The notes below the pieces were generated by a model. That model was not told where the DNA came from, ran no database searches, and saw only the letters and a program-made list of their open reading frames with translations. Source: Macrostomum lignano (taxonomy: Eukaryota). From it: 64,000 bases of DNA. The stretch's first letter is position 1. The number at the start of each line of letters is the position of its first letter. Both the position numbers and the translations under genes were made by a program. The stretch is taken from positions 502,303-566,302 of the forward strand of contig NIVC01000302.1 in the NCBI GenBank assembly GCA_002269645.1, written 5' to 3'. Positions 13,806 through 45,476 of the stretch are shown piece after piece.

Positions 13806-13835
13806 GTGAGGAATACTCTCAGTTCTCCATTATCC

Positions 13836-15137: not shown

Positions 15138-15167
15138 AAGGCAATCCACAGCCAAGGACTTAAATTA

Positions 15168-15530
15168 GGGGGGCCGTAGCCCAGCGGTAGCGCAGCTGCT
15201 CTGGTGTGCCAGCGACCCAGGCTCGATTCCAAGTGCAGTCACATTAATTTGGGGCTGAATTGGAATCTCGGCTTGGCTCTGCTCGTGCAATTAACGGCCT
15301 TGAGAGCCAACCCCCAAGGCGCAGTGAAGTGTACATGCCTAACGATAAATAAAGTTAGGGCCGCTGTACACTCCTGTGTGAGTGTGTGCCTGCGTACGTA
15401 TCCGCGCGCTTGTATGCCTGCTCAGGGGAGTCGGCGGAATGGGCAGTAATGCCTCTCGCCGGTTGTGTGCCTACGTCGCTTAAAGTGCGCCAGGGTGCAC
15501 ACAACCCCCCTGCCTCTAATAATAAAGAAA
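15168..15530 (+). mobile_element. tRNA-derived SINE, family B, with a structured 3' region
   Basis: GGGCCGTAGCCCAGCGGTAG (A box) and GGCTCGATTCC (B-box-like) in tRNA spacing; hairpins at 15433-15506; ends near TAATAATAA. Confidence 0.6.
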
Positions 15531-15715
15531 CAAGGTCTTTAATTGTTATGCAGGTTTGCGTAAACCTAGGTAAGTGCGAGATATCTACATATGTATGATG
15601 TATTTATTAAATATCTTATTTCTAAATCTGAGTGGATCGATCGATCAACCGGCCGGGTTTAACGCGTATCTTAATCTATATACCGGTAGAACATTGTTTA
15701 CTCGTCACGAGTAGA

Positions 15716-15995
15716 GGGTTTGTAGCCTAGTAGTTATAAAGCGTCGCGGACTCACAATGAAAAGGTCGGGGGTTCGATTCTCAGAATAATTGGTCTTTGA
15801 GCAAGACACTTAACTCTGCATTGCTTCAGTTCACCCAAGCTGTGAAATAGCAATAGGTACCAGCTTAGCTGAGGTAATCGAGGGCGATGTGGCGAACCCC
15901 CGTCCTTGGACTAAACAGCCGTACGCGGATGCGCGCCGCGCAATAGCTGCGACTGTATATACACATCTACTCATTGGGGCAGGTGTACAGTGTAA
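15716..15995 (+). mobile_element. tRNA-derived SINE, family A (CORE/MIR-like central domain)
   Basis: TAGCCTAGTAG A box, GGTTCGATTC B box, then TTGAGCAAGACACTTAACTCTGC...CACCCAAGCTGTGAAAT; second copy at 28418-28750. Confidence 0.8.
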
Positions 15996-16579
15996 TAACA
16001 AACTCGAAGACAATTGGTGCTGCAACCGCCGTCGAATGAGGCCAATTACCTGCCATCGGTCGCTTCACAGTCGCGATCATCACAGTTTTCTAATTTTTTG
16101 AGTACGAACATTAGATGATCGCCCAATCCTCATTCTGCAGCCCGAAAATCCGAGCAGCCACTTCAGCATCGGTCGTCAGCCCGTCGATCAACAAGAAGCC
16201 GGGGGAGGCGGCGGACCCGGATCCGCAGAGACCGACGACTCCGCCGCCAGAATTTGCCAACGCTGGCGATCAAGGAGGCGAAGCCCCTGGGCAGCAGCAA
16301 GACCAGCCCGCCGTGTTCAATGCGCCCGGACCGCTAATGGGGATGCCATTCATACCGGACTCTGGCAACGACCCGCTGCCTTCGTTTCTATGGAGACCGC
16401 CGGTGTAGCTTAAAGTAGTACCCAATTGACTGATTAAGCTAATTGGAGCTTCTAGGAGAACAGCTTAAAGACCATGCAGTCGGTAATCTGTCCTGGACGT
16501 CAAAAGTCGACTAACAATAGCCCTTCGTAGATGCAAGAAAAATTTCTCACCCCCTGTAAAAATCCTGGCTAAAAATATC

Positions 16580-16780
16580 ACCAACTGAAAGATCGAATCC
16601 AAAAATCTCACCCTTTAAGAGATCGAAGCCACAAATCTCACCCCTTACAGATCCAAGCCACAAATCTCACCCCTTACAGATCCGAGCCACAAATCCCACC
16701 ACCTACAGATCCAAGCCACAAATCTCACCCCTTACAGATCCGAGCCACAAATCTCACCCCTTACAGACCAAAGCCGCAAA
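16580..16780. repeat. 29-bp variant of the AAGCCACAAATCTCAC satellite
   Basis: About 6 units GATCCAAGCCACAAATCTCACCCCTTACA; shares its core with the 28-bp array. Confidence 0.85.
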
Positions 16781-17426
16781 TCGAACTCGTCTGGAGAAAA
16801 ATGAAGTTATTGACAATGAGTTCCAAATAATTTCAACTACCAATGACTTCCACCTCAAATATTAGCAAGCAGTGAGTAGATAGCCTGTTGGTTCAAACCC
16901 TCCGTGATGTTGCTTGAATTAAAATGTTACTCTATTGGAATAAAATATTGCCTATAAATATATTATTACTCTTTGTTTTACGATTTGTTGATGCTGATAC
17001 CCCCAAACTTTACACTTAAGCTGGCCGAATAAAAAATATATGTATTTCAATATTCTGTGTCAGCAACAATCAGTTTTGACAAACAAAAAAGTCACTGCAG
17101 TTGTTTTAACTAACAAAAACAAGTTATAATATAATATCTGATTTTCCCGTGCACAGTATATCAACATTCCGGACAATTTATATTTATTAACTATTCGAAA
17201 TTGAACTCAAAACGTTTTCACCAGCACTGAATAAAGAGCAAATAAGACAAGGCTTCGAAATCGATGAGATGGAGTATTGGAGTAATATTTAAGACCGAAA
17301 CTGGATACAGTAACACCGCAGCAAAGGCTCACTAGCCGATTTAAAGGTACAATAACTGCCAGAGTGCCCGAAAATATTGTAAACTGCTAACTGCTTCTAA
17401 CCGACTCGCATCAACATCCAAAAAAC

Positions 17427-20116
17427 CTCACAGTTGAACATAAAAGCCACAAATCTCACAGCTGAGGATCGAAGCCACAAATCTCACAGCTGGAGATGAA
17501 AGCCACAAATCTCACAGCTGAGGATCGAAGCCACAAATCTCACAGCTGAGGATCGAAGCCACAAATCTCACAGTTAAACATAAAAGCCACAAATCTCACA
17601 GCTGAGGATCGAAGCCACAAATCTCACAGTTAAACATAAAAGCCACAAATCTCACAGCTGAGGATCGAAGCCACAAATCTCACAGCTGAGGATCGAAGCC
17701 ACAAATCTCACAGCTGAGGATCGAAGCCACAAATCTCACAGCTGAGGATCGAAGCCACAAATCTCACAGCTGAGGATCGAAGTCACAAATCTCACAGCTG
17801 AGGATCGAAGCCACAAATCTCACAGTTAAACATAAAAGCCACAAATCTCACAGCTGAGGATCGAAGCCACAAATCTCACAGCTGAGGATCGAAGCCACAA
17901 ATCTCACAGCTGAGGATCGAAGCCACAATCTCACAGCTGAGGATCGAAGCCACAAATCTCACAGCTGAGGATCGAAGCCACAATCTCACAGCTGAGGATC
18001 GAAGCCACAAATCTCACAGTTAAACATAAAAGCCACAAATCTCACAGCTGAGGATCGAAGCCACAAATCTCACAGTTAAACATAAAAGCCACAAATCTCA
18101 CAGCTGAGGATCGAAGCCACAAATCTCACAGCTGAGGATCGAAGCCACAATCTCACAGCTGAGGATCGAAGCCACAAATCTCACAGCTGAGGATCGAAGC
18201 CACAATCTCACAGCTGAGGATCGAAGTCACAAATCTCACAGTTAAACATAAAAGCCACAAATCTCACAGCTGAGGATCGAAGCCACAATCTCACAGCTGA
18301 GGATCGAAGCCACAAATCTCACAGCTGAGGATCGAAGTCACAAATCTCACAGCTGAGGATCGAAGCCACAAATCTCACAGTTAAACATAAAAGCCACAAA
18401 TCTCACAGCTGAGGATCGAAGCCACAAATCTCACAGCTGAGGATCGAAGCCACAAATCTCACAGCTGAGGATCGAAGCCACAATCTCACAGCTGAGGATC
18501 GAAGCCACAAATCTCACAGCTGAGGATCGAAGCCACAAATCTCACAGCTGAGGATCGAAGCCACAATCTCACAGCTGAGGATCGAAGCCACAAATCTCAC
18601 AGTTAAACATAAAAGCCACAAATCTCACAGCTGAGGATCGAAGCCACAAATCTCACAGTTAAACATAAAAGCCACAAATCTCACAGCTGAGGATCGAAGC
18701 CACAAATCTCACAGCTGAGGATCGAAGCCACAATCTCACAGCTGAGGATCGAAGCCACAAATCTCACAGCTGAGGATCGAAGCCACAATCTCACAGCTGA
18801 GGATCGAAGTCACAAATCTCACAGTTAAACATAAAAGCCACAAATCTCACAGCTGAGGATCGAAGCCACAAATCTCACAGCTGAGGATCGAAGCCACAAA
18901 TCTCACAGCTGAGGATCGAAGCCACAAATCTCACAGCTGAGGATCGAAGTCACAAATCTCACAGTTAAACATAAAAGCCACAAATCTCACAGCTGAGGAT
19001 CGAAGCCACAATCTCACAGCTGAGGATCGAAGCCACAAATCTCACAGCTGAGGATCGAAGCCACAATCTCACAGCTGAGGATCGAAGCCACAAATCTCAC
19101 AGCTGAGGATCGAAGTCACAAATCTCACAGCTGAGGATCGAAGCCACAATCTCACAGCTGAGGATCGAAGCCACAAATCTCACAGTTAAACATAAAAGCC
19201 ACAAATCTCACAGCTGAGGATCGAAGCCACAAATCTCACAGTTAAACATAAAAGCCACAAATCTCACAGCTGAGGATCGAAGCCACAATCTCACAGCTGA
19301 GGATCGAAGCCACAAATCTCACAGCTGAGGATCGAAGCCACAATCTCACAGCTGAGGATCGAAGCCACAAATCTCACAGCTGGAGATGAAAGTCACAAAT
19401 CTCACAGCTGAGGATCGAAGCCACAAATCTCACAGCTGAGGATCGAAGCCACAAATCTCACAGTTAAACATAAAAGCCACAAATCTCACAGCTGAGGATC
19501 GAAGCCACAAATCTCACAGTTAAACATAAAAGCCACAAATCTCACAGCTGGAGATGAAAGTCACAAATCTCACAGCTGAGGATCGAAGCCACAAATCTCA
19601 CAGTTGAGGATCGAAGCCACAAATCTCACAGTTAAACATAAAAGCCACAAATCTCACAGCTGGAGATGAAAGTCACAAATCTCACAGCTGAGGATCGAAG
19701 CCACAAATCTCACAGCTGAGGATCGAAGCCACAAATCTCACAGTTAAACATAAAAGCCACAAATCTCACAGCTGAGGATCGAAGCCACAAATCTCACAGT
19801 TAAACATAAAAGCCACAAATCTCACAGCTGAGGATCGAAGCCACAAATCTCACAGTTAAACATAAAAGCCACAAATCTCACAGCTGAGGATCGAAGCCAC
19901 AAATCTCACAGTTAAACATAAAAGCCACAAATCTCACAGCTGAGGATCGAAGCCACAAATCTCACAGTTAAACATAAAAGCCACAAATCTCACAGCTGAG
20001 GATCGAAGCCACAAATCTCACAGTTAAACATAAAAGCCACAAATCTCACAGCTGAGGATCGAAGCCACAAATCTCACAGTTAAACATAAAAGCCACAAAT
20101 CTCACAGCTGGAGATC
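17427..20116. repeat. 28-bp satellite, about 96 units, two interleaved unit types
   Basis: Type A GAAGCCACAAATCTCACAGCTGAGGATC; type B AAAGCCACAAATCTCACAGTTAAACATA. Confidence 0.97.
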
Positions 20117-20460
20117 GCACCCAGGTCTTAAGACTCCGAAGCCGGACAATTTAGATAAAAGCAACAACCAATTAAACAGCAAGTTTATTGCAGTTTGACA
20201 GCAAATATGCACTGAATAGATAACTTATACCCATCCACTTAACAGCTTCACTTCTGACAATGAATTCTCAGCTTATATTTGCCATTCAGACACTTAAGCA
20301 TTCAACTGGTGTACATATTTGAGCCCAACATTGCCACATAAAGTTCACCCGCCAGCAGTCAAGTTCATGCAGCACAAGACATGGACAATCAATCAGTCAG
20401 CAACCACCTTCATACACAGAGCAATGCCCTCATTATCCAGCTATTCTCCCTAACACAGTG

Positions 20461-21162
20461 TCACGTGGCCTTGGCCCTCTGCGCAGCTCTCCTGCCCACC
20501 TGGGCCTGAAATCCAGACTTGATGCTGGCAACTGAGCACCGACTGCCGCAGGTGCTGCACTGCAGGAAGAACAGCCGAGTCTCCTTAACGAGCTCAGTGT
20601 CGTGAGACCGGCACGTGTGGCACATCACGTACTCCTTGATGTACGAGCGCAGCACCGATTCAATGTTCTTAGTCTGGAATCTGCCCTTAATAATGAGCTG
20701 GTTGTTCCCATCAACCGACCCGGTGGTGCCCAGCTCAGTTAGAAGGTAAGCCAACAGGTGGTCCGGCTTCCTTCGAATCTGCTTGCTGATCTCCGTGAAG
20801 TTGGCAAAGGCGGTCTTCTTGGTTCCAACTCGCATCAGAGACGGAGGCTTCATCACCACCTTCTTCTTCTCCGACAGCATATCCGGGTTCCGCTCCATCA
20901 TGGCGCGGAAGGCCCGGCTGAGCAGCTCGCTGTAGCTGTAATCCTTGTCCTCGCTTCCATCTCCCTCCACAGCTGACGCCGCGCCTTGGCCTCCGTCCTC
21001 CTCAGGCTGCTCAGCCGTCGCCGCGGGTCGCTCCTTCGGCGGCTTCTTCTTCTTCTTTGTTTCGAGGTTAAAGTCTGCTTCAAGCTCCTCATCCACTGCT
21101 GGGGTCTCCTCGGCCAGCTCCTTCTTCTTATTCTTCTTCTTTTTTATGCTCGGGTCGAACAT
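20461..21162 (-). CDS. EIF2S2: Translation initiation factor eIF2 beta subunit, main exon (copy 1)
   Basis: Poly-Lys boxes, core [11 protein letters not shown]...[18 protein letters not shown]...[14 protein letters not shown], and C4 zinc finger CHTC...CSTC; ATG directly follows a cgcag acceptor. Confidence 0.93.
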
Positions 21163-22599
21163 CTGCGCGAGTCAAACAGGGGAGTGAAAGGCATTGCAAA
21201 CAAAGAGCAACGAACGAAGATTAGCGACGAAAAGCATAGATTGATAATCGACACTATTGACAGAGGCGATAACAATAGAAGCATTGCCAACTTAGCACAC
21301 AGGCAAGAATTCGCACAGGCTGTATCGCTGGGGAGGTGATTATGTAACTTAATGAAGTCTAAACATACAAAAAAATTTTTGTCATGTGCTTCTTTATATG
21401 CAGGTTTTGTTAAGTGAACTTTTTCTTGCTGAACCTTGTTCTATATTGTAACTTTTTCATATGGAGCTTCCTGGTTGGTTTGGTTGGAGGCATGCATGAA
21501 ATAAATGAAAAGGCCAAGCAAGATAGTGCTTAAATGATTTCTCCAAGGAATTAATTGCCTGCGGGTTTGACATACTCTTTACTATAGACAACTAGCAGTG
21601 AGGCTCAAAATGCATGTGTTTTTGCTATCTTTCTAATGTAAGACATACTATTTGTAATGTGAGCACTTAACAATAGCTTTGCAATATGATTATATTGCAA
21701 CTAGCAATAGAACCAAATAAATGGTTGAAGGGTAAGCTAAAAATAATATCATAATATTCTAGAAGATGAACTAAACTAGATTGGATTTGTTCATGCTATG
21801 TGTAAATTTGAAGAGTAAAAAATACTTAGAGTCTATGGCTTCTATCTATAGCTTTTTCTATGAATTTTATCTATGGCCCAAAAACAAGCATGCAACATTC
21901 TAGCAAGAAGCAGTATAAATATAGTAAATATTGATTCAATAATTGGTTCACTTATTAGCTAATTTAAATGCCAGTTCAAGATGTATCTATGATGCTTTTT
22001 GATACCAATGTCATTTTGCCTATATCTAAAAATGCAAACTTCAAAACTATTTTTGTAAATAAGCATAAAATGACATGGCTTAAAAGATGTCTTTGGTACA
22101 AAGTTAGACTATTAGACAAATGGGTAGACTTAGTGAGTGGTTAGTCAAAGAAGATAGATATGCCTACTATGCCTTCATTACTGCAGCTTATATATATATA
22201 TATAGGACTGTCTATTCATCAGTTTTACTAATTAGTAATTGATTGTCTATTGTTTTAAAATGTATCAATATTTTCATTGAATATGTTGCTGTTATTTAGT
22301 ATTTATCATTAAACCAAATACTAGAGACAATAATTTTTAATATCAAAATTAAAAGTAATTTTTAGTAAAAATTGGCTTTTGTAATTGAAAAATCATTAAT
22401 TTTGTAGGCATTCTTTTGTTTTACAATCCCTGATAAGGTCAAGTTTTGTCTTACGATCCCCATTAAAAAGAGTCAAAAAAGACACTTTAGTTTATCAAAA
22501 AGTATGTTTCACATTTATTTTCCAAGAACAAAATCATTGCAACTCACTTTCCAGTCAACCTAATTCATCACTGCAACTCACTTTTCAATCAACTTGAGG

Positions 22600-24276: not shown

Positions 24277-26571
24277 AATGTGAGGGTTTCACGAGAGATA
24301 TTCAGACAGACATTTGAAACGATCGTCTGTAACTTTAAACAAAATTGACCCGCTTCAACCATCTTTTTGGCAAATACTTACGCAAGTGTTGGGCGTCAAA
24401 AAAGCTTTAATTTATTAACTGAAGTAAAAATCCTTCTGACATACATTGATTTAAAAATTGCTTAGCAACACTAGCTCTGATTAGAAATCGCTTTACTGTT
24501 GACTAAAATTGTTTTGATCGTAGCAGCCTAAAAGCAGATACTGGATTTAAAAATACTTCGATTTACTCTATACGCATGTCTCAGCTTTAAAATGACACCT
24601 CAGGCGTCGCAAAAGACAGCTTTGATGCTGAGATATTCGACTCTAAACATGCATTGCTTTGCGCAATCTCACATTCAGAAATTTCACTGATTTTTTGTCG
24701 ATATTTGTGCAGCTGCCGTGTCCTTGTTTTTCATCAGAAACTTGTCAAATTCTAGTCATGTCCAGTTTAAACCTGGACTTCTCTTAAACTGTCTTAAGTA
24801 TTCGATTTTTAATGATTCCTGCCTTTATATTGCATAGATTGTACCTGAGTCAGTGAGTCTGTGAGTGTACATTTGTACATTTGGCAACCAATCATGACTT
24901 TTTCACCGCTTTGCGGTTCAAATAAATATACGAGTGTACAAGAAACATGTTCCAACTGTTATTGAGAGAAATTGACGTCGCGTTTATTAACAGTCAGTGG
25001 CAATTAATATGAAGCAAATAGTTTATTGTTATGTTTTTACTTTTTTTGCGTGGCAATTCTGCTATCCAAATCGGAATGAGGTAAGCGGTGGGAATAAAAT
25101 AAAAAGGAAGAATTTTTTCTACTGTTGTTGCAACCCAATAGCTATATGTACTTCAAACTTTTTAGATTGAACAGGCGATTTCTAATGTACTGCTAAGCTT
25201 TCCAATCCCTACGGACTACAGTAGCAGTTCTTAACTTTTTTTCTGTCTTGACTTCTAGACTCGGAATTCGGAACAACCTAAGGAGCCACATGAAAATATT
25301 TAATTGGATAAAGATATTTTCTAAAAACAGCTCAAGTCGTGACACATCTTCTTCTCACCTCAGTCCATCAACTGCTGCTCCTTCTGAGACCAAAGCGATC
25401 GTGAAAGTAAAACAGATCAGTTTAGATCCCATGGCCATGAATACAACCATTTCAATTGTGAACCTGCTTTGCTTACAAGTACGAGCACTAGCCTTCCATT
25501 TGATGCCATTAGCTCACTTAACTCTGAAATAGTTCAAGGACGGTTCCAAATGTTGAGATCTGACGTAGAAGCAGTCCAATTTGTGGAAATTTATCAACTG
25601 GACTCCATGAATCACTCCAATGAAAGGCGGCGAATAGCTGTAGAATGCGTAAACAAGTTTAAGTGAGTCACAAAAACCCCATTTACTGTAACTACATACA
25701 CTTGTACGTTAGCAAGGCTCCATGCGATGGTTAATAAATGGAGAAGTAGACAAGCATCTGAACAAATATTGAATAAAAATCAGTGAAGTTTCCGAATGTG
25801 AGTTTGAGCAAAGCAATGTTTAGTGTCGAATATCTCAGCATCAAAGCTGTCTTTTGCAATTCCTGAGGTGTCATTTTAAAGCTGAGACATGCGTATAGAG
25901 TAAATCAAAGCATTTTTAAATCCAGTATCTGCTTTTAGGCTGCTACGATCAAAACAATTTTAGTCAACAGTAAAGCGATTTCTAATCAGAGCTAGTGTTG
26001 CTAAGCAATTTTTAAATCAATGTATGTCAGAAGGATTTTTACTTCAGTTAATAAATTAAAGCTTATTTGACGCCCAACACTTGCGTAAGTATTTGCCAAA
26101 AAGATGGTTGAAGCGGGTCAATTTTGTTTGAAGTTACAGACAATCATTTTGAATGTCTGTCTGAATGGGTCTCCCTAAAACACGCCCCGCACCGCCCTGC
26201 AGCGCTACACATTAAAACAAATTGGACTATAACTAAAGACACTTCAGAATGCGTTTTCTGTTAAGCTTCAAGTTTTTATTAAATTTAGTTTTTTTTACTT
26301 TGAAATATAAAATTCGGTGAACAAAAAGTGATATTAATAATAATATTAATAAAATAATAATATTATAATTTAATAATGAAAACGAGAATATAAAAAATAA
26401 TAATATTTAAAAAAATAAATAAAGATATTTATTCCATTACTATTTTAACTTTTCCTTGCAATCAAATACTGCATTGACAAAAAATGTTATAATGTGTAGC
26501 AGTTCGGGGCCCGGTGCGGGGCGTGTTTTAGGGAGCCTTTGTCTGAATATCTCTCGTGAAACCCTCACATT
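24277..26571. mobile_element. Foldback-type element with ~420-bp inverted arms
   Basis: 24277-24695 is the reverse complement of 25775-26166 plus 26549-26571 at high identity; no TSD found. Confidence 0.8.
26167..26539. mobile_element. Mutator-like MITE inserted in the foldback right arm
   Basis: TIR CTCCCTAAAACACGCCCCGCACCG / CGGTGCGGGGCGTGTTTTAGGGAG; 9-bp TSD TGTCTGAAT at 26158-26166 and 26540-26548; the left arm shows the empty site. Confidence 0.8.
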
Positions 26572-30204: not shown

Positions 30205-31010
30205 CTGAAAATGGATGCAAAAAGGGCTAAATGATATTTAAAGCTATATTAGGATTATAGTAGGCAAAAATTGGGAGACTAGACAAATACACATCATTGA
30301 TTTATCAATATACTAATATAAATATAGTCCTACACAATAGCCTCCAAAATATAGACTATGCATACAAATATTTTGGCCTGCAGACTGCATACCAGAGTTT
30401 AACTATTGCATATAGAAGTAAATTTTTGTATACCAATGCACATGGTACAACTACAAAGTTGCCCTAGACCCTATTGCATACAAATATTTATTTACAAAAA
30501 TGGCATTGTCAAGAAAATGGATCTTAGATAATCCAATAAATATTTATTTATTTTTAAAAAACGCCAACTCCTCTATTGGAGAAAGGCCATAGAACTCCCA
30601 TTGACAAAATTACATTCCTTAAAATCTATTAGCTGAATTCTATGACCCTAATCCAATCTTCTAAATCTTCTTTAAAACCTCCTAAATAACATATCTTGTT
30701 TTCCCTGTTTGCAAAAAATGATTGTGTTGTGTCGTGACTAAGAGCCCGTAAAAGGGCCGTTCGTCTAACTAACCTTTTCTTACTACTCTACTTTAAGTAG
30801 TGCAGTTAATAAATTATTCGTATATTGTATTGTAATGTATCGTATTCACGTGACATTTTGGCGGTTGAATTTATCGATCGTGTAACAATCCACTGTTAAA
30901 TATTAAATACAAGCGCGGGTTGCCCTAAGTGGAGCTCGTACCTTTTTTCCAGCAAAAAGTCTTACCTGCCACGTACTCGTTTCCTGTGTTAGTCTGTTGA
31001 GACACCACAT

Positions 31011-31024
31011 TGGCGACGAGGATG
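31011..31024 (+). other. Primer-binding site complementary to the tRNA-Ser(GCU) 3' end
   Basis: TGGCGACGAGGATG one base after the 5' LTR; the animal tRNA-Ser(GCU) ends ...CATCCTCGTCGCCA (recalled, not searched). Confidence 0.8.
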
Positions 31025-32185
31025 AGCGGACCCAGCCTTCCAGCACCAGCGCCTTTCCTTCCCGTGAGCGGCCAACCGGCAGTACCGTGGCCAAGATGGC
31101 TGGACGCGTTCGAATTCTTCTACACGGCATCCCAGTTTCGGGAGCCGGAGGGGCAATCCGAGGCAGAACCCACAAAGAGGAATCTGCTACTCCACCTGCT
31201 CGGATTCGAAGGCCAGCGCATTGCCAAGGCGAGGCAAGCACTCACGGAGGGAGATTCCTTCAAGGAGACGAAGGCAAAGCTGGACGGGATCTTCGGAGAG
31301 AAGCCCAACGTGATGGTGGCTCGCTTCCGATTCCGCCAACGACACCAGCTGCCCGGCGAAGACGCGGAGTCGTTCGTGGCCGCGCTCAGGGAGCTGGCCG
31401 AGCCCTGCGAGTACGGAAATCTCCGAGACCAGCTCATCAGAGACCAACTGGCAGAGAAGACTGGCAGCGCTCGCATCCGGGAGCGACTGCTGACGGAAGA
31501 CGCGGCTACTCTCACGCTGGAGAGGGCCCTCGCCATCGCCGTCACCATCGAGAAGGCGTCAAAGGGCTGTCAGGCTCTGATGGGCACAGCGGAGCCCGTG
31601 CACGCGGTCCGGCAGGCGCAGAAGCCAAAGGCGAAGTGGAGTGGCGCGGCGAAGCCAGCTAAGAAAGGCCAGCAAAGTCGACCCGCCGCCAAGGCCTGCT
31701 CTCGCTGCGGACGCAGTCACGGCGACGGCAACTGCCCAGCGAAGGGGCAGTCCTGCAACAACTGCGGCAAGATGAACCATTTCAGCCGTTGCTGCCGGAG
31801 CAAGGCGCTCCAAGTGACCGGCCAGGCTCAGGACGGCCCGGACGAGGCGGTCACTATATACGCCGTGCAGGGAGACGGTGAGATCCGTGCGCAGCTGCAT
31901 CTCGGACAAGCAGAGGTGCCGGTCAATACTCTGATCGACTGCGGCGCCAAGGTGTCACTGTTGAACGCCGACACGGCCGCGCTCCTGACCGACGTGCTAC
32001 CTCAGCCGACAACGATGAAGCTGCGCGCATACGGCGGCAAGCTGATCGATCTCGTGGGCCAAGCGGCGGTTCCCGTTAAGCACAACAACCGGTCTCTGCA
32101 ACACCTATTCTACATCGCGAAGCACGGCGACAACATCGCAGGTCGAGACCTCATGGATAAGCTCGGTTTCCATGTGAGCCTGTGA
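31022..32185 (+). CDS. Gypsy Gag-protease ORF
   Basis: Retrotransposon gag (RFRFRQRHQLPGE...LRDQL), zinc knuckles CSRCGRSH...C and CNNCGKMNHFSRCC, aspartic protease LIDCGAKVSLL. Confidence 0.9.
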   Translation: MSGPSLPAPAPFLPVSGQPAVPWPRWLDAFEFFYTASQFREPEGQSEAEPTKRNLLLHLLGFEGQRIAKARQALTEGDSFKETKAKLDGIFGEKPNVMVARFRFRQRHQLPGEDAESFVAALRELAEPCEYGNLRDQLIRDQLAEKTGSARIRERLLTEDAATLTLERALAIAVTIEKASKGCQALMGTAEPVHAVRQAQKPKAKWSGAAKPAKKGQQSRPAAKACSRCGRSHGDGNCPAKGQSCNNCGKMNHFSRCCRSKALQVTGQAQDGPDEAVTIYAVQGDGEIRAQLHLGQAEVPVNTLIDCGAKVSLLNADTAALLTDVLPQPTTMKLRAYGGKLIDLVGQAAVPVKHNNRSLQHLFYIAKHGDNIAGRDLMDKLGFHVSL

Positions 32186-32198
32186 GGACGTCAGCGAG

Positions 32199-33048
32199 GT
32201 GAACAGCGTCGCGGAGCAGCTGGAGGCGCGGTTCCCAGCGGCCTTTAGCGAGCAGATCGGCTGCTGCAGCGGAGCCGTGCACAAGCCCGTCATCGACCCC
32301 TCCATGCCGCCAGTGCGCCAGCCTCTGCGTCGTCTACCGCTGGCCAAGCAGCAGCTGGTGGAGGCTGAGCTCGACAAACTGGAGGCGGCTGGCATCATCG
32401 AGCGAGTCGACTCGAGTCGCTGGGTGTCAAACCTGGTGACCACCACCAAAAAGGACGGCAGCATCAGGGTCTGCGTCGATATCCGGGAGCCCAACAAGGC
32501 GGTGATATGCGACCAACACCCGATGCCCCAGCTGGACGACATCGCTGCCAAGATCAAGGGGGCCAAAGGACAGATCTTCAGCAAGGTGGACCTGAAGGCC
32601 GGCTACATGCAGATGGAGCTGCATGAGTCTTCGCGCGACCTGACAGCCTTCATCACGCACAAGGGCCTATACAGGTACTGCCGAGTGCCGTTCGGTTTGA
32701 CGTCAGCGCCTGCGGCGTTCCAGCGCATGCTCGACGATCTGGTGGCCGACCTGGACGGCGTGGAGCACATCCTCGACGATTTCATCATCTTCGGTGCCAC
32801 CACGACGGAGCACGACCGCTGTTTGGAGGCTCTACTGCGGCGACTCTGTGACAGGGGCTTGACAGTGAACAAGCAGAAATGTGAGTTCCGACAGCCGCAG
32901 ATCGAATTCTTCGGCTTCCTAGTTTCCGGCGACGGGTTCCGTGTTGGCGATTCGCGTACGCGTGCTTTCGAAGAGATCCGGGCTCCGACCTCCCAGAAGG
33001 AGCTGCAGTCGTTCCTGGGCGCCGCCAACTTCCTCAGGCGTTTCATCC
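32199..33048 (+). CDS. Gypsy pol, RT N-terminal part (cut by an insertion)
   Basis: KKDGSIRVCVD, FSKVDLKAGYMQ, PFGLTSAPAAFQ, HILDD, LQSFLGAANFLRRFI. Confidence 0.92.
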
Positions 33049-33366
33049 TATCCTCGTCGCCAATGTGGTGTCTCAACAGACTAACACAGGAAACGAGTAC
33101 GTGGCAGGTAAGACTTTTTGCCGGAAAAAAGGTACGAGCTCCACTTAGGGCAACCCGCGCTTATATTTGATATTTAACAGTAAATTGTTACACGATCGAT
33201 AAATTCAACCGCCAAAATGTCACGTGAATACGATACATTACAATACAATATACGAATAATTTATTAACTGCACTACTTAAAGTAGAGTAGTAAGAAAAAG
33301 TAAGAAAAGGTTAGTTAGACGAACGGCCCTTTTACGGGCTCCTAGTCACGACACAACATTTTCCCC
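33049..33366 (-). mobile_element. Inverted PPT-LTR-PBS fragment of the same retrotransposon
   Basis: Minus strand reads GGGGAAAA + complete 295-bp LTR (33064-33358) + T + TGGCGACGAGGAT; CATCC is present on both sides (33044-33048, 33367-33371). Confidence 0.93.
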
Positions 33367-35299
33367 CATCCCGCACTTCTCGGACATCACGGAGCCGCTG
33401 CGCAAGCTGCTTAAGGCCGACGCGGAGTTCAGCTGGTCCGAAGAGTGCCAGCAGTCTTTCGACGCGCTGAAGCAGGCGGTCAGCAGCCCGCCAGTTTTGG
33501 CTTTGTTCGACCCCGCAGCCGTTACGATTGTCACTACGGACGCCAGCTCAGTCGCCCTGGGCGCCCAGCTGTCCCAGCTGCAGGACGGCGTCGAGCGGCC
33601 GATTGCCTTCGCCGCCCGAGCGCTCACAGAGACCGAGCGGCGCTACGCAGCCAACGAACGAGAAGCCCTGGCGTGTCTCTGGGCCATGGAAAAGTGGCAT
33701 TTCTTCCTGTACGGGAGGCACTTTGAGCTCAGAACGGATCATCAGTCTCTGCGGCAGCTGCTGATGGGACCTAGCGGCACCGGGCACCGGCCGCTCCGCA
33801 TCCACAGGTGGTGCGACAGGTACCAACAGTATGACTTCCACGTCCGCTATCTACCCGGCGAGAGCAACTGCATGGCCGACCTCCTGTCCCGGTGGAGCAA
33901 CGGCTCCGACATGAACTTCGTCCAGCTGCCCGACACCGCGATGCCCAGGGTGCCCGCGTTGTCACTGTCCGAGCTGGCGGAGGCGACGACCAAGGACGAG
34001 ACGCTGCGACGGGTGCGGCAACACGTGTTGAACGGCGACTGGCCCAGGCGCACCGCGGACTCCGAACTCAAGCCGTACCTGCTGGCGCGACAACACCTAA
34101 GCGTCTGGCACGACGCTTCCTGCCTGGCGTTTCAGGAGCGAGCCGTCATTCCGGCGGAGCTGAGGCGCGGCGTCTTGGAACAGGCGCACACCGGACACCC
34201 AGGCGTGGTGCGCACAAAACAGATCCTGCGAGAGTCCGTCTGGTGGCCGCGACTCGACGCTGATGTCGAAACCTTCATCAGGGGCTGCGGCGCGTGTGAG
34301 ACGGCGGAGAAGAACTTCAAGCTGCACCCAGCGCCGCTGCAGCCGATCGAGTGGCCCGCGGGTCCGTGGGAGGAGATCGCCGTCGACATCGTCGGTGAAC
34401 TGCACGAAGCGCCGCAATCGTCCCGGTTCCTGCTGGTGGTTACGGACCTGCATAGCAAGTGGCCGGTGGTCTTCGCCACGGCTAGCATCACAACCGAAAC
34501 CGTCTGCAAGGTGATGCGGTCCCTGTTCGCTCGCTGGGGTCTCTGCAAGAAGGTCATCAGCGACAACGGCCCGCAGTTCGGCGCGGCCTTCACAGAGTTC
34601 CTGCGAGCTCGGGGTATCCAACACCGCAAGACCAGCCTCTACCACCCGAGCACGAACGGCCAGACTGAGCGGCTCAACCGGACGCTGCTTTCCAGCATTC
34701 GAGCGGCCAAGGCAGACTGCACGCCGCTGTCCGACGCCATCACCCAGTTCCTGGAGGTCTACAGGAGCACGCCGCACAGCCTGACGGGCAGGAGCCCCGC
34801 CGAGCTCATGCTAGGGCGATCGATGCGGACGATGCTGACTGCCCTGGCACCGCCCAAAGACATCAATGAGACGGACGAGGGACGGCGACTGAGCGAGACC
34901 ATCTACTACCGGCAACAGCGGACCAAGCGCTACACGGACCTATGCCGCCGGGCGCGAGTCAGCGACCTCCGACCAGGCGATTGGGTCCGAGTGCGGCGGC
35001 CCATCAAGAAGGGCAAGCTGGCCACGAGACTGTCCGGCCCGCTACAGATCATGACCAAGGCCGGCGCCGCGTACTGGCTGAGCGACGGCACAACCTGGAA
35101 TCAACAGGCGTTGGTCCCCACAAGCGCTAGGGCCTACGGCGACCAGGACGCCGAGCTCGACCCGCTGGTGCATGGCGAACTCGGCGGTGACAGCGATGCG
35201 GCGGCAATGGCGCAGCCGGCGGGGCTTCCCAGCGAAGTCCAACCAAGGCGCTCGGCCAGGGCCCGACGACCTTCGGAGCGGTACCAAGCGGGACTGTGA
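33367..35299 (+). CDS. Gypsy pol, RT C-terminus, RNase H and integrase
   Basis: Resumes IPHFSDITEPL in the frame of ORF 33497; TDASSVALGA, ANEREAL, HTGHPG...CGAC, VDIV...SDNGPQF...NGQTER (D,D35E). Confidence 0.92.
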
Positions 35300-35644
35300 T
35301 GTCCGTGCTCTCGGGAGGGGGGAAAATGTTGTGTCGTGACTAGGAGCCCGTAAAAGGGCCGTTCGTCTAACTAACCTTTTCTTACTTTTTCTTACTACTC
35401 TACTTTAAGTAGTGCAGTTAATAAATTATTCGTATATTGTATTGTGAAACGTATTTTTAATCACGTGACATTTTGGCGGTTGAATTTATCGATCATGTAA
35501 CAATTTACTGTTAAATATCAAATATAAGCGCAGGTTGCCCTAAGTGGAGCTCGTACCTTTTTTTCCAGCAAAAAGTCTTACCTGCCACGTACTCGTGTTT
35601 CCTGTGTTAGTCTGTTGAGACACCACAGATTGCCATTGTCCAGA

Positions 35645-39642: not shown

Positions 39643-41470
39643 TAGATCATGGCAAGTAGATATAGCCTAGGGCCTAGGGGCCTACTTAGTAGGCCTAATG
39701 AAAATTATTGTTTTTTGATATTATTCCAATATAAAAAATAACCCAGAGGTCAAAAATAAAGTTGCTGTATGCAAAATTAGTATTGCATACAGCAATACTA
39801 ATTTTTAGTATAAAATTTAAAAATTAGTATAAAAAATTTGAAACAAAATATCTTTTTTTTATAAAATATTTTTTGTCTTTGAGGGTTTTCTAATTTCCAA
39901 TAAATATTTTGATAAACATTCAAAACAATTGTCTGTAACTTTTAACAAAAGTTGACTTGCTTCAACTATTTTTAGCAAATATTTGTGCAATTGTTTGATA
40001 TCAAATGAGCTTTGATTTATTTTTATTAAATAAAATGAAAAATCTTTTTAAGATACATTGATTCAATATTGCTTAGCAACATATATGCGCAACCCCCCTG
40101 ATTTACACTGGCCATGCGACTTACTTTTTTGACCAAAAATGCAACTTACCTGTAAATGCAATTATGGGTAAACGGCAGGAGTAACTATGACTGTCTTATA
40201 AGGCTAAATGCCTCGTCATCTAATTAGTACTATGTCTATTTTTAAGCTTGGCATTATTGCAACTTACCCCTGGTCCACCACAATTTATGGTGGCCAAATC
40301 GGCCAGGTCGGCCAGCAGTTGTGCATGTTATGCTTAGCAACACTCTGATTGGTAATATGGTAATATCACTTTACCATTAGGGCCTAACTGAAATTGTTTG
40401 AAGCATAGTAGCCTAAACATAAATGCTAGTTTATCCAAGTGATTTAAAATTTATTGAGTAACAAATAAAAAAAGCAAGCTTATATATAAAAGACTACGAA
40501 AAGCAGAAAAAGTAAGAAGTTTCTTCTTCCAAGAAATTTGAAAATTGAAAGCTAATTAATTATTAAAATATAAAAAAGAAGGTTGTTTCAATTGCACTGT
40601 CAGGCACAATAGAAAGTTATAAAAGATTGCTAATATACATTATATATATAGTATAGAAATAAATCAAGTATAAATGCTTATATGTAGATATAGGCAAGAA
40701 TTACTTTATATTTTAATAATGAAAGCAATAAGTAAGAAGATTTGTTAATATTGCATGGTCATCCTCATAAACAAAAAATTATTTAGGCATATAGGTAGAT
40801 TTAATTATAATATAACTTCTTGTCAAATATATAAAGTACAATAAAACATTAGCAAACTCTAACTTTTATTAATGTGAAAAAGTTAGCAGTAGTACTTTCA
40901 GTAGTGATTAAGTATTGTTAGTCTTTGTAAAAGATTAAATATAATCCTACAAAGGCAATCGAGTGTTTGTTTTATTTTCTACCTTAATTTGCAGTTTTTT
41001 AAGCACCAGGATATCTTCCAGGTTCAAAATATTTGGTTTCCTAGATTTTTTGTTAAAACTACAGCTATGGCTCTATGGGAATATGAGAATCTTGGGGTCC
41101 CCATGGCTATGGAATACAGAGAATTGGAATAAGCCATAGTTTTTGTTTATGGCTATGGCACATGGACCCTCCTTATGGCAGAACACTACCTTTGTATCTC
41201 AAAATATGTTATAAAGTTGCAGAAAAATACTCTGTGAAAATACATTGTTGGTACAAGTATATATTTTAAATACTATACCCAAGCTTTTATGGATACAAAA
41301 ATGTGAAGTTGTATTCTTATCAAATTTTGTCAATTAGTTAATTAGAATGTAGCTGAGTGGTCTTAGCACTGTAATACTCAAAAGCATTGCCCGTGTCACT
41401 TTTAAGCGACTAATAATTATGATTTATGATTGTTTGCCATGCCTTTCGCTCCCCTGTTTGACTCGCGCAG

Positions 41471-42172
41471 ATGTTCGACCCGAGCATAAAAAAGAAGAAG
41501 AATAAGAAGAAGGAGCTGGCCGAGGAGACCCCAGCAGTGGATGAGGAGCTTGAAGCAGACTTTAACCTCGAAACAAAGAAGAAGAAGAAGCCGCCGAAGG
41601 AGCGACCCGCGGCGACGGCTGAGCAGCCTGAGGAGGACGGAGGCCAAGGCGCGGCGTCAGCTGTGGAGGGAGATGGAAGCGAGGACAAGGATTACAGCTA
41701 CAGCGAGCTGCTCAGCCGGGCCTTCCGCGCCATGATGGAGCGGAACCCGGATATGCTGTCGGAGAAGAAGAAGGTGGTGATGAAGCCTCCGTCTCTGATG
41801 CGAGTTGGAACCAAGAAGACCGCCTTTGCCAACTTCACGGAGATCAGCAAGCAGATTCGAAGGAAGCCGGACCACCTGTTGGCTTACCTTCTAACTGAGC
41901 TGGGCACCACCGGGTCGGTTGATGGGAACAACCAGCTCATTATTAAGGGCAGATTCCAGACTAAGAACATTGAATCGGTGCTGCGCTCGTACATCAAGGA
42001 GTACGTGATGTGCCACACGTGCCGGTCTCACGACACTGAGCTCGTTAAGGAGACTCGGCTGTTCTTCCTGCAGTGCAGCACCTGCGGCAGTCGGTGCTCA
42101 GTTGCCAGCATCAAGTCTGGATTTCAGGCCCAGGTGGGCAGGAGAGCTGCGCAGAGGGCCAAGGCCACGTGA
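41471..42172 (+). CDS. EIF2S2: Translation initiation factor eIF2 beta subunit, main exon (copy 2)
   Basis: The 233-aa translation is identical to copy 1; same cgcag|ATG acceptor. Confidence 0.95.
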
Positions 42173-42528
42173 CACTGTGTTAGGGAGAATAGCTGGATAA
42201 TGAGGGCATTGCTCTGTGTATGAAGATGGTTGCTGACTGATTGATTGTCCATGTCTTGTGCTGCATGAACTTGACTGCTGGCGGGTGAACTTTATGTGGC
42301 AATGTTGGGCTCAAATATGTACATCGTCATCAGTTGAATGATTAAGTGTCTGGATGGCAAATATAAGCTGAGAAGTCATTGTCAGAAGTGAAGCTGTTAA
42401 GTGGATGGGTATAAGTTATCTATTCAGTGCATATTTGCTGTCAAACTGCAATAAACTTGCTGTTTAATTGGTTGTTGCTTTTATCAAATTTGACCGGCTT
42501 CGGAGTCTTAAGACCTGGGTGCGATCTC

Positions 42529-42803
42529 CAGCTGTGAGATTTGTGACTTCGATCCTCAGCTGTGAGATTTGTGGCTTTGATCCTCAGTTGTGAGATTTGT
42601 GGCTTCGATCCTCAGCTGTGAGATTTGTGGCTTTGATCCTCAGTTGTGAGATTTGCGTCTTCGATCATCAGCTGTGAGATTTGTGGCTTCGATCCTCAGT
42701 TGTAAGATTTGTGGCTTCGATAATCAGCTGTGAGATTTGTGGCTTCGATCCTCAGTTGTAAGATTTGTGGCTTCGATCATCAGCTGTGAGATTTGTGGCT
42801 TCG
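42529..42803. repeat. 28-bp satellite (reverse complement of 17427-20116), about 10 units
   Basis: GCTGTGAGATTTGTGGCTTCGATCCTCA units directly after the eIF2-beta 3' region. Confidence 0.95.
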
Positions 42804-43434
42804 TGTGTTGGTGTTATTGGTTGGCTTTCTAGCTTGCTGTTGCTATTTTTCATCTGATATACAAGACCGTACCAGTCCGATTCAGTTGAAGGAAGTTTAA
42901 TTTGTCCATTTAATTTATGCGTCGTGCATGTTGGATCAAATTAGCTATTTTGTTTGCTTTACTTACTGGGCTGCGCTGTCTCAAATTAACTACTCTCGAA
43001 TGCATCTTTTCATTCTATGTGTTATAAATTCTGCTTGGTCCAACCTATTTCGATTATCTTCGTAGCCCTAACAGAACTTTGAAAGCGTTATGACATTATG
43101 AAAGTTGAAAGTGTGTTATAACATCGGTGTCATTTTAATTAATAATAATGCGAATTTGAATGTATTCCGATTAACAAAATATAGTGTTTGCACATGCGGA
43201 TTTATTTTCGTGCTGCCCTGTGTAGTCTTGTGGATCTGAGTTGGACATTTGTTAGGCGTTGTTCGCTGCTTTAGTTACTCTTAGTAGCATAAGTTAAGTT
43301 ACGCCCCATTTCATTCCATACTTATATTTTTAAGTATATCTACGAGATATTGTAATATGTTTTTGGTTCCACGACAAACCAATGCTTTAGAAGTACGAGT
43401 ATAGCTGAAGGCAAAGTTGACTGTGTAATCAACC

Positions 43435-44215
43435 CTAGATCAACTGAGTGATTCCCATGGACCTTGCAACAACTGAGTGATTCCCATGGACCTTGCAACA
43501 ACTGAGTGATTCCCATGGACCCTGCAACAACTGAGTGATTCCCATGGACCTTGCAACAACTGAGTGATTCCCATGGACCTTGCAACAACTGAGTGATTCC
43601 CATGGACCTTGCAACAACTTATTGATTTCCCATAGACCCTGCCACAACTAAGTGATTCCCATGGACCCTGTAACAACTAAGTGATTCCCATGGACCCTGT
43701 AACAACTGAGTGATTCCCATGGACCCTGCCACAACTAAGTGATTCCCATGGACCCTGCCACAACTAAGTGATTCCCATGGACCCTGTAACAACTGAGTGA
43801 TTCCCATGGACCCTGTAACAACTAAGTGATTCCCATGGACCCTGTAACAACTGAGTGATTCCCATGGACCCTGCCACAACTAAGTGATTCCCATGGACCC
43901 TGCCACAACTAAGTGATTCCCATGGACCCTGTAACAACTGAGTGATTCCCATGGACCCTGCCACAACTAAGTGATTCCCAAGGACCCTGCAACAACTGGG
44001 TGATTCCCATGGACCCTGCCACAACTAAGTGATTCCCATGGACCCTGCCACAACTAAGTGATTCCCAAGGACCCTGCAACAACTGGGTGATTCCCATGGA
44101 CCCTGCAACAACTGGGTGATTCCAATGGAAATTGCAACAACTGAGTGATTCCAATTGAAATTGCAACAACTGAGTGATTCCAATGGAAATTGCAACAACT
44201 GAGTAGTTTTCCTAC
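43435..44215. repeat. 29-bp minisatellite (CAACTGAGTGATTCCCATGGACCTTGCAA)n
   Basis: About 27 units; variants change gradually along the array. Confidence 0.95.
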
Positions 44216-45476
44216 CAACGGAGTTATTTCCAATTAAAAAATTGCAGTTTGCCAATGAGAAAGTTAAAACAATGACCAAATTCAAACCTGGAATACAAAT
44301 TCACTGTGCATGGTTACAAAACCAAAACTTCACAAAGCCTACATGTAAATCTTTTTCTTAATGATTTAGGATATTGAGGTACGGTTTATGAAGATAAGGT
44401 TGGTGAAAGTGAATGCTAATTGGATTTAGACAAAAAAATCAGCACCCCGTTCTATACGTGTATTCACTTTTATAATGCCACTACACTAGCTTTCTGTTGG
44501 CCTTTGAGAGAAATGCATGGACCACTGAGTTATCTGGAATGGAATCGAGTCGAAAAGGTTTAGTGTTTAGTATTTAAATTTGAAGTTTAGTGTGTTTAGC
44601 AGCTAATAAAGAAAAAAACTTGCAATCTAATGACTTATATTATTCGGTCTTTTAGATTAGGATGTCTCTAAATAAAATAAATTTTATTTATTGGATCAGA
44701 AGGTAAGAACTCTTTTATTATTACAAAACAGCAGATTCAGTACCTGTCTAGTGTTTATTCTGTGCTCTCTCCCGGCTCGCTTTCAGTCTAGAAGCGGTTA
44801 AGACTAAAGGGATCCCTGGAAAATACTTATCGAATCCTTAAATAGCCTATCGGACAAAAATCTACATCTGCATGACGCATTGATGTGCCAACTGGCCTTT
44901 TATTTATAGAATGAAAAGAACCTATAACATTTTTGACAATGCCCTTAATTAGTAGCGCGCTCTCTTGCATAGCTTGAAACACCTGGTGCCGGGCATCGTT
45001 GTTAGCCATGTTCTCAGATCGTAACTCGGAAGCAGGGCCAAACGACACCAACTGTATAATTATAGAACTTCTTCTGTACTTGAGAACATTGCAAATTAAC
45101 CTTTACACGCCTGCATTGCTTCTAAGGACGGGAAACTATAAGTTTCTAGGAAAGTTTTCCAAGAACGTCTACGTAAGATATAAAATTAACATAAAATCCT
45201 TATTTTTCTAAACGGGAAGCTCTACTAATATCAGAGTATAAGAAACAATTAATGTCAAAACATTAACATCGGGTCTGCAGCTGCTATCAAAAGAAATGCT
45301 TTGTGAGGAAAAAATGAAAATCTCCATTCTGTAACATGCACAGTTCTTAATCAGTAACGAGTATGAGTGTACAAGTGTGTATACGTTGAAGTGTCCGTTT
45401 TGTGGTTGGTTTGTCTATCAGATTTTATCGCGATCATCAGAATTTGGATTTATCGGTGGTCAAAAAGTGCGTAGTG

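What the first reader, a model, noticed from the sequence alone, without database searches (positions are those of the whole stretch)
33044..33371. Inverted PPT-LTR-PBS cassette written into the element's own reverse transcriptase gene
Seen: a 318-bp insert reads, on the minus strand, partial PPT + whole LTR + 13 nt of PBS. A linear provirus never has PPT and PBS around one LTR. Removing the insert plus one CATCC restores ...RRFIPHFSD... in frame. Its ends are not TG..CA. Both junctions show microhomology: the antisense PBS CATCCTCG versus target CATCC, and the antisense PPT CCCCCCTCCCG versus CCCCCATCCCG. Known: PPT-U3-R-U5-PBS is the layout of plus-strand strong-stop DNA and of a 1-LTR circle junction. 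Inference: a captured reverse-transcription intermediate inserted by template switching rather than by integrase. It kills pol, adds an antisense LTR promoter, and lets read-through RNA fold into LTR dsRNA, so the locus could be a self-made silencing source for its family.
Basis: partly seen in the sequence, partly recalled or inferred. Interest (0 to 1): 0.8.

Follow-up and report, generated by a model that had tools for sequence, protein, structure and literature searches.

The report
Backward LTR copy inside own polymerase
A jumping gene in this animal genome carries a backward copy of its own end repeat inside its polymerase gene, likely made when its reverse transcriptase folded back, copied to the end of its tRNA primer and returned, and a sister copy is broken at the very same spot.

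Summary
The insert is real. It is a 318-bp inverted PPT tail + whole LTR + PBS inside the RT gene of a Ty3/gypsy element, with a 5-bp target repeat. A second haplotig carries it unchanged, and public contigs cover both junctions. The PBS end is better read as the 18-nt tRNA-Ser(GCT) copy that ends plus-strand strong-stop DNA (17/18 here). A sister element of another sub-lineage (C112) has the same junction with 18/18 and was integrated with two U3 ends and a 5-bp TSD. The PPT-side junction lies at the element's best fold-back site for a 30-35-nt nascent strand. Best model (0.55): the nascent minus strand folded back onto PPT-LTR-tRNA and returned, and the inverted arms later converted each other. 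Conversion is needed because the insert and the 5' LTR share two lesions found nowhere else. A purely chromosomal switch (0.2) or a cDNA patch into the parent locus (0.15) remain open. It is not a captured free strong-stop DNA, since it keeps PPT. Silencing is untested. Verdict: a new variant of known reverse-transcription accidents, here recurring at a hotspot.

The parts
30720..30724 (+). 5-bp target-site duplication GATTG, left copy (right copy 35628-35632)
   Evidence: the empty-site allele C3981 has one GATTG
30725..31009 (+). 5' LTR (285 bp). Lacks one 10-bp repeat unit; carries a private U3 block (about 30830-30849) and a private 2-nt U5 deletion (about 30968-30988); reads TACAAG where the other two LTRs read TATAA
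31011..31024 (+). native PBS, 14 nt complementary to the 3' end of host tRNA-Ser(GCT)
31022..32185 (+). gag-protease region; frame break near 32180 in both haplotigs, absent from the siblings
   Evidence: no Pfam hit; protease motif read by eye
32178..33048 (+). reverse transcriptase, 5' part (RVT_1)
   Evidence: E 2e-29
33044..33048 (+). duplicated target CATCC, left copy (right copy 33367-33371); the site is one of only two sense ATCCC 5-mers in a 4,599-bp sibling
33045..33062 (-). 18-nt tRNA-length tail: 17 of 18 nt match the 3' end of tRNA-Ser(GCT), with one mismatch at 33049; its last bases are shared with the target
   Evidence: 18 of 18 at the same junction in C112
33064..33358 (-). inverted whole LTR (295 bp). 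Keeps the 10-bp repeat like the 3' LTR; shares the private U3 block (about 33224-33243) and U5 deletion (about 33085-33105) with the 5' LTR; keeps TATAA
33359..33367 (-). inverted PPT tail (8-9 nt)
33369..33399 (+). RT stretch with imperfect inverted likeness to the pre-PPT region (about 35287-35316): the proposed fold-back stem
33367..35299 (+). RT 3' part, RNase H, integrase
   Evidence: RT_RNaseH_2, RT_RNaseH, Integrase_H2C2, rve
35313..35326 (+). native polypurine tract
35327..35627 (+). 3' LTR (301 bp); lacks the two lesions shared by the other two LTRs

Best explanation
The insert is an inverted PPT-LTR-PBS copy inside the element's own RT gene, likely written by a double template switch during minus-strand reverse transcription and likely homogenised later with the 5' LTR by conversion between the inverted arms. 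Step 1 (inferred): on reaching this RT site, the nascent minus strand left the RNA and paired, through about 30 nt of imperfect homology, with the pre-PPT part of minus-strand DNA. Step 2 (inferred): it copied the PPT tail, U3-R-U5 and 18 nt of the attached tRNA-Ser primer, stopping where plus-strand strong-stop DNA stops. Step 3 (inferred): its 3' end re-annealed to ATCCC at the abandoned RNA, and synthesis went on with a 5-6-nt repeat and no loss. Step 4 (shown): the whole three-LTR element sits in one GATTG target duplication. Step 5 (inferred): lesions that arose later in one arm were copied to the other; a 5-nt slipped pairing with the 5' PBS could also give the T at 33049. C112 would be the one-switch product of the same hotspot: an ordinary strong-stop DNA took over the abandoned RNA, giving an element with two U3 ends.
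For: (1) Shown: C112 has the same left junction with 18 of 18 tRNA letters. It ends at the inverted LTR's U3 terminus with ATAAT on both flanks (the left LTR is internally deleted and I read its start by eye), so that junction existed in a cDNA before integration. (2) Shown: over gag-RT the window differs from uninterrupted C1909 and C3341 by 12/2039 and 14/2027 but from C112 by 29/2039. LTR run-length types weakly agree. This favours two origins at one site; 2 of 6 loci with a close RT copy are cut there. (3) Shown: fold-back pairing ranks 1 of 3,884 positions at the junction for a 35-nt nascent end (-22.1 against a mean of -10.8, sd 2.8) and rank 1 of about 3,870 for 30 nt in two siblings. 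(4) Shown: only two sense ATCCC exist in the element and the junction is one of them. (5) Shown: 47 genomic sites in 23 contexts carry the 18-nt tRNA end. Several join it to mid-pol sequence or run on into the tRNA with misreads at A58, so such tails are common products here. (6) Shown: a locus of another family (C396/C428/C2957) has an inverted LTR plus an 18/18 tail in RT without target loss, although its native PBS matches only 10 nt. Its haplotigs are flip isomers and its inner arm copies 220 bp of its own 5' flank, consistent with later exchange between arms. (7) Known: plus-strand synthesis stops 18 nt into the tRNA, before m1A58 (PMC8599865, passages).
Against: In the window the tail has T, not C, at 33049 in both haplotigs, and none of 16 tRNA-type ends has T. 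Private non-CpG C>T changes run at only 3 in about 1,400 sites (counted by hand), while a slipped ATCCT duplication explains the T without any tRNA. All five terminal tail letters can also come from the target, so tRNA origin rests on register, not on unique letters. The insert and 5' LTR share two lesions found at no other locus, whereas one reverse-transcription event should give three equal LTRs; the conversion step is added to fit this. The homology is not unusually strong: 101 of 300 shuffled queries score as well somewhere in the element. Its rank drops to 27-31 (20 nt), about 100 (45 nt) and about 520 (12 nt) of about 3,900, and I chose the 35-nt length after seeing the match. For the tail alone, the site ranks 11 of 71 end-paired windows. 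In family 3 the junction was not among the 56 end-paired windows.
Confidence: 0.55

Rival explanations
1. Purely chromosomal templated inversion after integration. A broken or stalled strand in RT folded back onto the PPT and 3' LTR and switched to the 5' LTR (or copied an excised 1-LTR circle or a sister tandem with a 3'/5' hybrid LTR). It then ran into the PBS and rejoined at TCATCC with a 5-nt slip.
For: Explains both shared private lesions and the T at 33049 without extra steps. The insert is 3'-like on the left and 5'-like from the block onward. Repair-type scars are common here: the C799 deletion with a 24-nt filler, and the C112 left LTR. Fold-back templated inversions at breaks are known in yeast (bioRxiv 10.1101/2024.03.07.583931, passages).
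Against: Needs three switches or a circle donor. The match in place and length to the pre-integration C112 junction becomes a coincidence. It cannot explain the family-3 analogue, whose tail has tRNA letters beyond a 10-nt PBS. The yeast inversions were 2 to about 150 bp and next to the break.
Confidence: 0.2
2. tRNA-tagged cDNA from this locus's own transcript was put back into the parent locus. A transcript starting upstream in U3 gave a minus strand with a hybrid LTR and attached tRNA. This was copied into RT by fold-back or used as a break patch, through PBS and PPT homology, without integrase.
For: Gives the hybrid LTR, the PPT start and the tRNA-length tail at once. It would also explain why the family-3 inner arm carries its own locus's 5' flank. 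Integrase-independent insertion at PBS- and PPT-like sites, often at existing family copies, is shown for Tf1 (PMC11042837, passages).
Against: Needs read-in transcription and return to the parent rather than to a sibling. Still needs the C>T change. The Tf1 products at existing copies were direct tandems, not inverted single LTRs.
Confidence: 0.15
3. Single origin: the junction arose once, and the window and C112 inherited it through recombination with co-packaged helper RNA or conversion between loci.
For: The junction position is identical, and defective elements need helpers (general knowledge).
Against: The nearest informative RT site, 165 bp upstream, sides with C1909/C3341 in the window and with C1300 in C112. 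The LTR run-length type about 80 bp on the other side also differs (weak marker). Two crossovers within about 250 bp would be needed.
Confidence: 0.07
4. Assembly chimera, or an ordinary integrase-made nested solo LTR.
For: There is a 5-bp repeat at the insert ends, the same length as the family TSD.
Against: The insert ends in PPT and PBS, not TG..CA. It is identical in a second haplotig. Public contigs cover both joins with 0-1 differences.
Confidence: 0.03

Closest known systems
Intramolecular RT template-switch rearrangements of retroviruses (deletions with insertions, insertions, duplications; review PMC3187697, passages seen). Aberrant plus-strand transfer (Pulsinelli and Temin 1991) is recalled; the paper was not held.
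   Same: RT leaves its template and resumes on short homology; the product integrates once with a normal TSD.
   Different: Here the inserted piece is a whole inverted LTR with a PPT tail and a tRNA-length tail, with no loss of target, and the same join recurs in a germ-line family.
Plus-strand strong-stop DNA (18 nt into the tRNA, stop before m1A58; PMC8599865, passages)
   Same: U3-R-U5 plus an 18-nt tRNA end: 17/18 here, 18/18 in C112.
   Different: The insert keeps 8-9 nt of PPT as DNA and continues from the RT strand, so it looks primed by the minus strand's own 3' end, not by PPT RNA.
Integrase-independent Tf1 insertion at PBS/PPT homology (Li et al. 2022, PMC11042837, passages)
   Same: Junctions sit at short likeness to PBS and PPT, existing family copies are favoured targets, and there are no integrase ends.
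   Different: Tf1 products are long cDNAs and, at existing copies, direct tandems sharing one LTR. Here a single LTR is inverted inside pol. Rad52 dependence is not testable.
Complex three-LTR insertions by template switching (Sabot and Schulman 2007, PMC1950507; abstract and first part of the main section read)
   Same: Three LTRs inside one TSD, with template switching proposed.
   Different: There two whole elements share an internal LTR and the outer LTRs are near-identical. Here the middle LTR is inverted inside one element's RT, and the outer LTRs differ by 11 substitutions and 5 gaps.
Autointegration inversion circles (PMC7197481, passages)
   Same: Inverted LTR-linked sequence inside the element's own cDNA.
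   Different: Autointegration joins processed LTR ends (general knowledge) and inverts part of the element; neither holds here.
Mu killer of maize (PMC3440606, search listing and start of abstract only)
   Same: An inverted duplication of element sequence that read-through RNA could fold into a hairpin.
   Different: Muk is a DNA-transposon derivative reported to silence its family. Here neither a transcript nor small RNA is shown, and the stem would cover LTR sequence only.
Mag-lineage Ty3/gypsy elements (PMC3286476, passages)
   Same: tRNA-Ser PBS, 5-bp TSD, short LTRs, about 4.6 kb; homologues named K02A2.6-like.
   Different: No tree with named Mag references was built.

Membership tests
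Ty3/gypsy LTR retrotransposon (host element) | pol order RT - RNase H - integrase | tested here: met
Ty3/gypsy LTR retrotransposon (host element) | direct LTRs TG..CA, PBS, PPT, TSD | tested here: met
Mag lineage | tRNA-Ser or -Leu PBS, 5-bp TSD, short LTRs | tested here: met
   compared with Table 1 passages of PMC3286476
Mag lineage | RT clusters with named Mag elements | not tested
   no named reference sequences at hand; only K02A2.6-like labels
Captured plus-strand strong-stop DNA | 3' end 18 nt into the primer tRNA | tested here: inconclusive
   17/18 in the window, with terminal letters shared with the target; 18/18 in C112
Captured plus-strand strong-stop DNA | 5' end at the U3 terminus, PPT primer removed | tested here: not met
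   8-9 nt of PPT kept; met in C112
Integrase-made nested solo LTR | joins at the LTR termini TG..CA | tested here: not met
   joins lie in PPT and PBS
Autointegration inversion | processed LTR end joined to internal DNA, internal segment inverted | tested here: not met
   both internal halves are colinear and sense
Conversion from a tandem element sharing an LTR | a PPT-LTR-PBS donor elsewhere in the genome | tested here: not met
   17 PBS junctions and 14 PPT-pattern matches. Only the C302 and C799 inserts have both around one LTR among the copies whose ends were read; the C3456 match was not read; the assembly may be incomplete
Integrase-independent PBS/PPT-homology insertion (Tf1 type) | target likeness to PBS and PPT at the joins | tested here: met
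Integrase-independent PBS/PPT-homology insertion (Tf1 type) | insertion into the chromosome by Rad52-type annealing | not testable with these tools
   timing before or after integration is unresolved
Mu killer-type silencer locus | inverted duplication able to pair in one transcript | tested here: met
   insert pairs over 289 nt with the 3' LTR, with perfect runs of 119, 36, 34, 31, 27 and 25 nt; 93 nt with R-U5-PBS
Mu killer-type silencer locus | hairpin RNA made, small RNAs produced, family silenced in carriers | not testable with these tools
   no stranded or small-RNA reads could be laid

The most novel reading that the evidence does not exclude
Elements whose PBS is shorter than the 18 nt that RT copies from the tRNA carry a built-in misfit. 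The unpaired tail seeks ATCC-like sites in pol, so these families repeatedly turn copies of themselves into inverted-LTR loci. These loci flip, convert and make LTR double-stranded RNA: a self-generated, Mu killer-like brake on LTR retrotransposons in animals. The same accidents leave a dated genomic record of host tRNA modifications (A58, C32, G26).
Probability: 0.12. Interest if true: 0.8.

Novelty: new variant of a known kind. Interest (0 to 1): 0.45.

Why it matters
It shows, in germ-line DNA, a reverse-transcription error that is mostly studied in retroviral vectors. It also shows the error recurring at one predictable site, giving two different products (a three-LTR element and a two-U3-end element). 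The locus is polymorphic, with an empty allele in the same assembly, so whether an inverted LTR inside an element silences its family can be tested directly by comparing carriers with non-carriers. It also warns that LTR-pair dating fails at such loci, since the inverted arms appear to exchange sequence. Without evidence of RNA it remains a dead copy with an instructive scar.

Tried and rejected
Host tRNA with T at position 63, which would have made the tail 18/18: rejected, 0 of 16. Window as parent of C112: rejected by site patterns and by C112 lacking the private lesions. A sibling sub-lineage carrying the private lesions: none; 4 matches each, all at this locus. Tandem shared-LTR donor: none seen. 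Unusual strength of the PPT-side homology: not supported (101 of 300 shuffles); only its position is notable. Special local RNA fold of the insert region: z -1.49. Expression: no RNA holder listed; the run guessed to be RNA is contigs only. No listed public contig showed the private U3 block, but contigs drop variants, so this says nothing. Literature searches (open-access library only) found no paper describing an inverted PPT-LTR-tRNA insert in an element's own pol. Four older papers most likely to bear on this were not held: Pulsinelli and Temin 1991, Parthasarathi 1995, Pathak and Temin 1990, Konstantinova 2006 (five failed look-ups). Absence from print is therefore not established. No supplements were read. 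Scan look-ups by place and by sequence were empty.

Full report
OBSERVATION. The window holds a 4.9-kb Ty3/gypsy element. Its LTRs are at 30725-31009 and 35327-35627, inside a GATTG duplication; an empty-site allele on C3981 has one GATTG. Pfam places RT left of the insert and RNase H and integrase right of it. The PBS matches 14 nt of host tRNA-Ser(GCT). The tRNA-Ser PBS, 5-bp TSD and short LTRs fit the Mag lineage as tabulated in PMC3286476 (passages), but I built no tree. Three uninterrupted siblings align up to 33048 and from 33367 with a 5-nt overlap, so 318 new bases plus one CATCC were gained. On the minus strand the insert is 8-9 nt of PPT, a whole LTR, a spacer base and PBS. It ends the RT frame at 33170. 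A separate frame break lies near 32180 in both haplotigs.

REALITY. The C799 haplotig carries the same insert with no difference over 318 bp. I laid contigs of 4 runs from 4 studies, out of 24 listed runs. The left join is covered by 59-61-nt contigs of X1 and X3 (0 differences) and X12 (1 difference); these fall one or two letters short of the rule. All 4 runs also show the uninterrupted join. One study may be the assembly's source, and 149 pieces were not shown.

THE PBS END. The join reads TTCATCC-T-ATCCTCG. The element's own PBS region does not continue this way, but the 18 bases 33045-33062 match the tRNA's last 18 at 17 positions. Plus-strand synthesis stops 18 nt into the primer, before m1A58 (PMC8599865, passages). 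A different locus, C112, has the same join with 18 of 18. There the inverted LTR runs straight into flank DNA, with ATAAT on both sides of the element (left start read by eye through a deletion). It was thus integrated with two U3 ends, and its join predates integration. The window is closer to uninterrupted C1909 and C3341 (12/2039, 14/2027) than to C112 (29/2039), so the join most likely arose twice. ATCCC occurs twice on the sense strand of a 4,599-bp sibling, and the join is at one of these. Caveat: the target itself supplies the last tail letters, and the window's T is not in any of 16 tRNA-type ends.

THE PPT END. The RT bases right of the insert resemble the antisense of the pre-PPT region over about 31 nt. 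For a 30-35-nt nascent minus-strand end this is the best fold-back site in the element: rank 1 of 3,884 and rank 1 in two siblings. The rank is 27-31 for 20 nt, about 100 for 45 nt and about 520 for 12 nt. The match is no stronger than the best match of shuffled queries in 101 of 300 trials. What stands out is that the junction lies on the best site, not the site's strength.

THE PROBLEM. One round of reverse transcription should give three equal LTRs. Instead the insert and the 5' LTR share a rearranged 15-nt U3 block and a 2-nt U5 deletion that the 3' LTR and the other aligned LTRs lack. Genome-wide, each lesion has 4 matches, all at this locus. Either the inverted arms converted each other after integration, or the insert was copied from this locus's 5' LTR later. 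A locus of another family helps (C396, C428, C2957; one site with TSD ATGAG). It has an inverted LTR in RT with no target loss and an 18/18 tail although its native PBS matches 10 nt. Its inner arm carries 220 bp of its own 5' flank, and its haplotigs are flipped between the arms (the flip is not read-checked). A tRNA-made junction and later copying from the outer arm therefore coexist there. I take the same two-stage history as most likely for the window (0.55), ahead of a purely chromosomal switch (0.2), a cDNA patch into the parent locus (0.15) and a single shared origin with C112 (0.07).

FAMILY CONTEXT. Seventeen LTR-PBS junctions of this family reduce to 8 loci by flanks. Three of the 8 carry tRNA sequence beyond the 14-nt PBS: the window, C112, and C712/C5093 (LTR, about 58 nt of tRNA, PPT, part of an LTR). 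Across all tRNA-Ser-primed families, 47 sites in 23 contexts hold the 18-nt end. By tblastn many lead into gag, some jump forward to mid-pol, and the contexts C112/C302/C799 and C396/C428/C2957 join antisense RT. I infer that a PBS shorter than the copied tail leaves a mismatched 3' end at the normal acceptor and so favours wrong landings; this was not tested across families.

FUNCTION. A read-through RNA could pair the insert with the 3' LTR over 289 nt, with perfect runs up to 119 nt. The inverted LTR keeps TATAA where the window's 5' LTR reads TACAAG. No RNA evidence could be laid. A close sibling has identical LTRs (C3341, 0 differences), so the family transposed recently. This speaks only weakly against silencing, because empty alleles exist and the window's LTR divergence is not a clean clock.

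KNOWN AND NEW. Template-switch insertions in retroviruses (PMC3187697, passages), three-LTR complexes (PMC1950507), PBS/PPT-guided integrase-free insertion (PMC11042837, passages), tRNA copies beside proviruses (PMC12220202, passages), asymmetric LTRs through intermolecular transfer (PMC9278108, passages) and fold-back inversions at breaks (bioRxiv 2024.03.07.583931, passages) are all described. My six searches of the open library found no report of this exact architecture or of a hotspot giving both products, but key older papers were not held. An unchecked note from this scan reports two-U3-end Gypsy by-products in a fish genome, so the C112 type is probably not rare. Verdict: real, a new variant of a known kind, interest 0.45.

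Noticed in passing
G000:C114 about 891,525 (L100, L189); also C3142 (L136), C2171 (L131), C712 (L115), C362 (L109), C1022 (L121), C1774 (L127): Copies of tRNA-Ser(GCT) fused to LTRs look like a record of RT blocks at modified bases. The 81-nt copy in C114 (LTR pair 100% identical over 221 bp) differs from the gene only at G26, C32 and A58. Two copies stop at U33, one base before C32. A58 is read as T in four contexts, C in one, and unchanged in two. m3C32 in tRNA-Ser and m2,2G26 are known (PMC10275265, passages).
   Followed up: partly
G000:C112:200,761-203,220 (L043): Element with inverted LTRs (two U3 ends), gag plus 5' RT only, and a 5-bp TSD; its left LTR is internally deleted with a short filler.
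   Followed up: yes
G000:C428, C396, C2957 (L180-L182): Second family with an inverted LTR plus 18-nt tail in RT. The inner arm includes 220 bp of the locus's own minisatellite flank; the haplotigs are flip isomers; two have lost most of the 5' LTR and gag.
   Followed up: partly
G000:C799 (L046), equivalent to window 30994-31680: The other haplotype has lost the end of the 5' LTR, the PBS and most of gag, with a 24-nt filler that looks partly templated.
   Followed up: partly
G000:C712 about 228,750-229,260 and C5093 (L044, L045): Mini-element: LTR, about 58 nt of tRNA read-through, PPT, partial LTR; no coding sequence between them.
   Followed up: partly
G000:C298:143,500-151,500 (L142): LTR plus 18-nt tail joined to antisense gag-like sequence inside a chimera with direct LTRs and a second PBS.
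   Followed up: no
G000:C862, C1600, C3569, C4040, C4932: One internally deleted family copy appears on five contigs with the same 5' flank, so the assembly holds several haplotypes per site and copy counts must be collapsed.
   Followed up: yes
window 20310-21203 and 41430-42323: An 894-nt perfect inverted pair 20 kb apart, continuing into 28-nt minisatellite on both sides, with a 236-codon open frame in each arm.
   Followed up: no
window 24293-24650 and 25816-26173: 358-nt inverted repeats, 96% complementary and 1.2 kb apart, possibly a non-autonomous DNA transposon.
   Followed up: no
window 4365-20300, 42300-44400, 52850-63250: Many minisatellite arrays with units of 18-52 nt.
   Followed up: no
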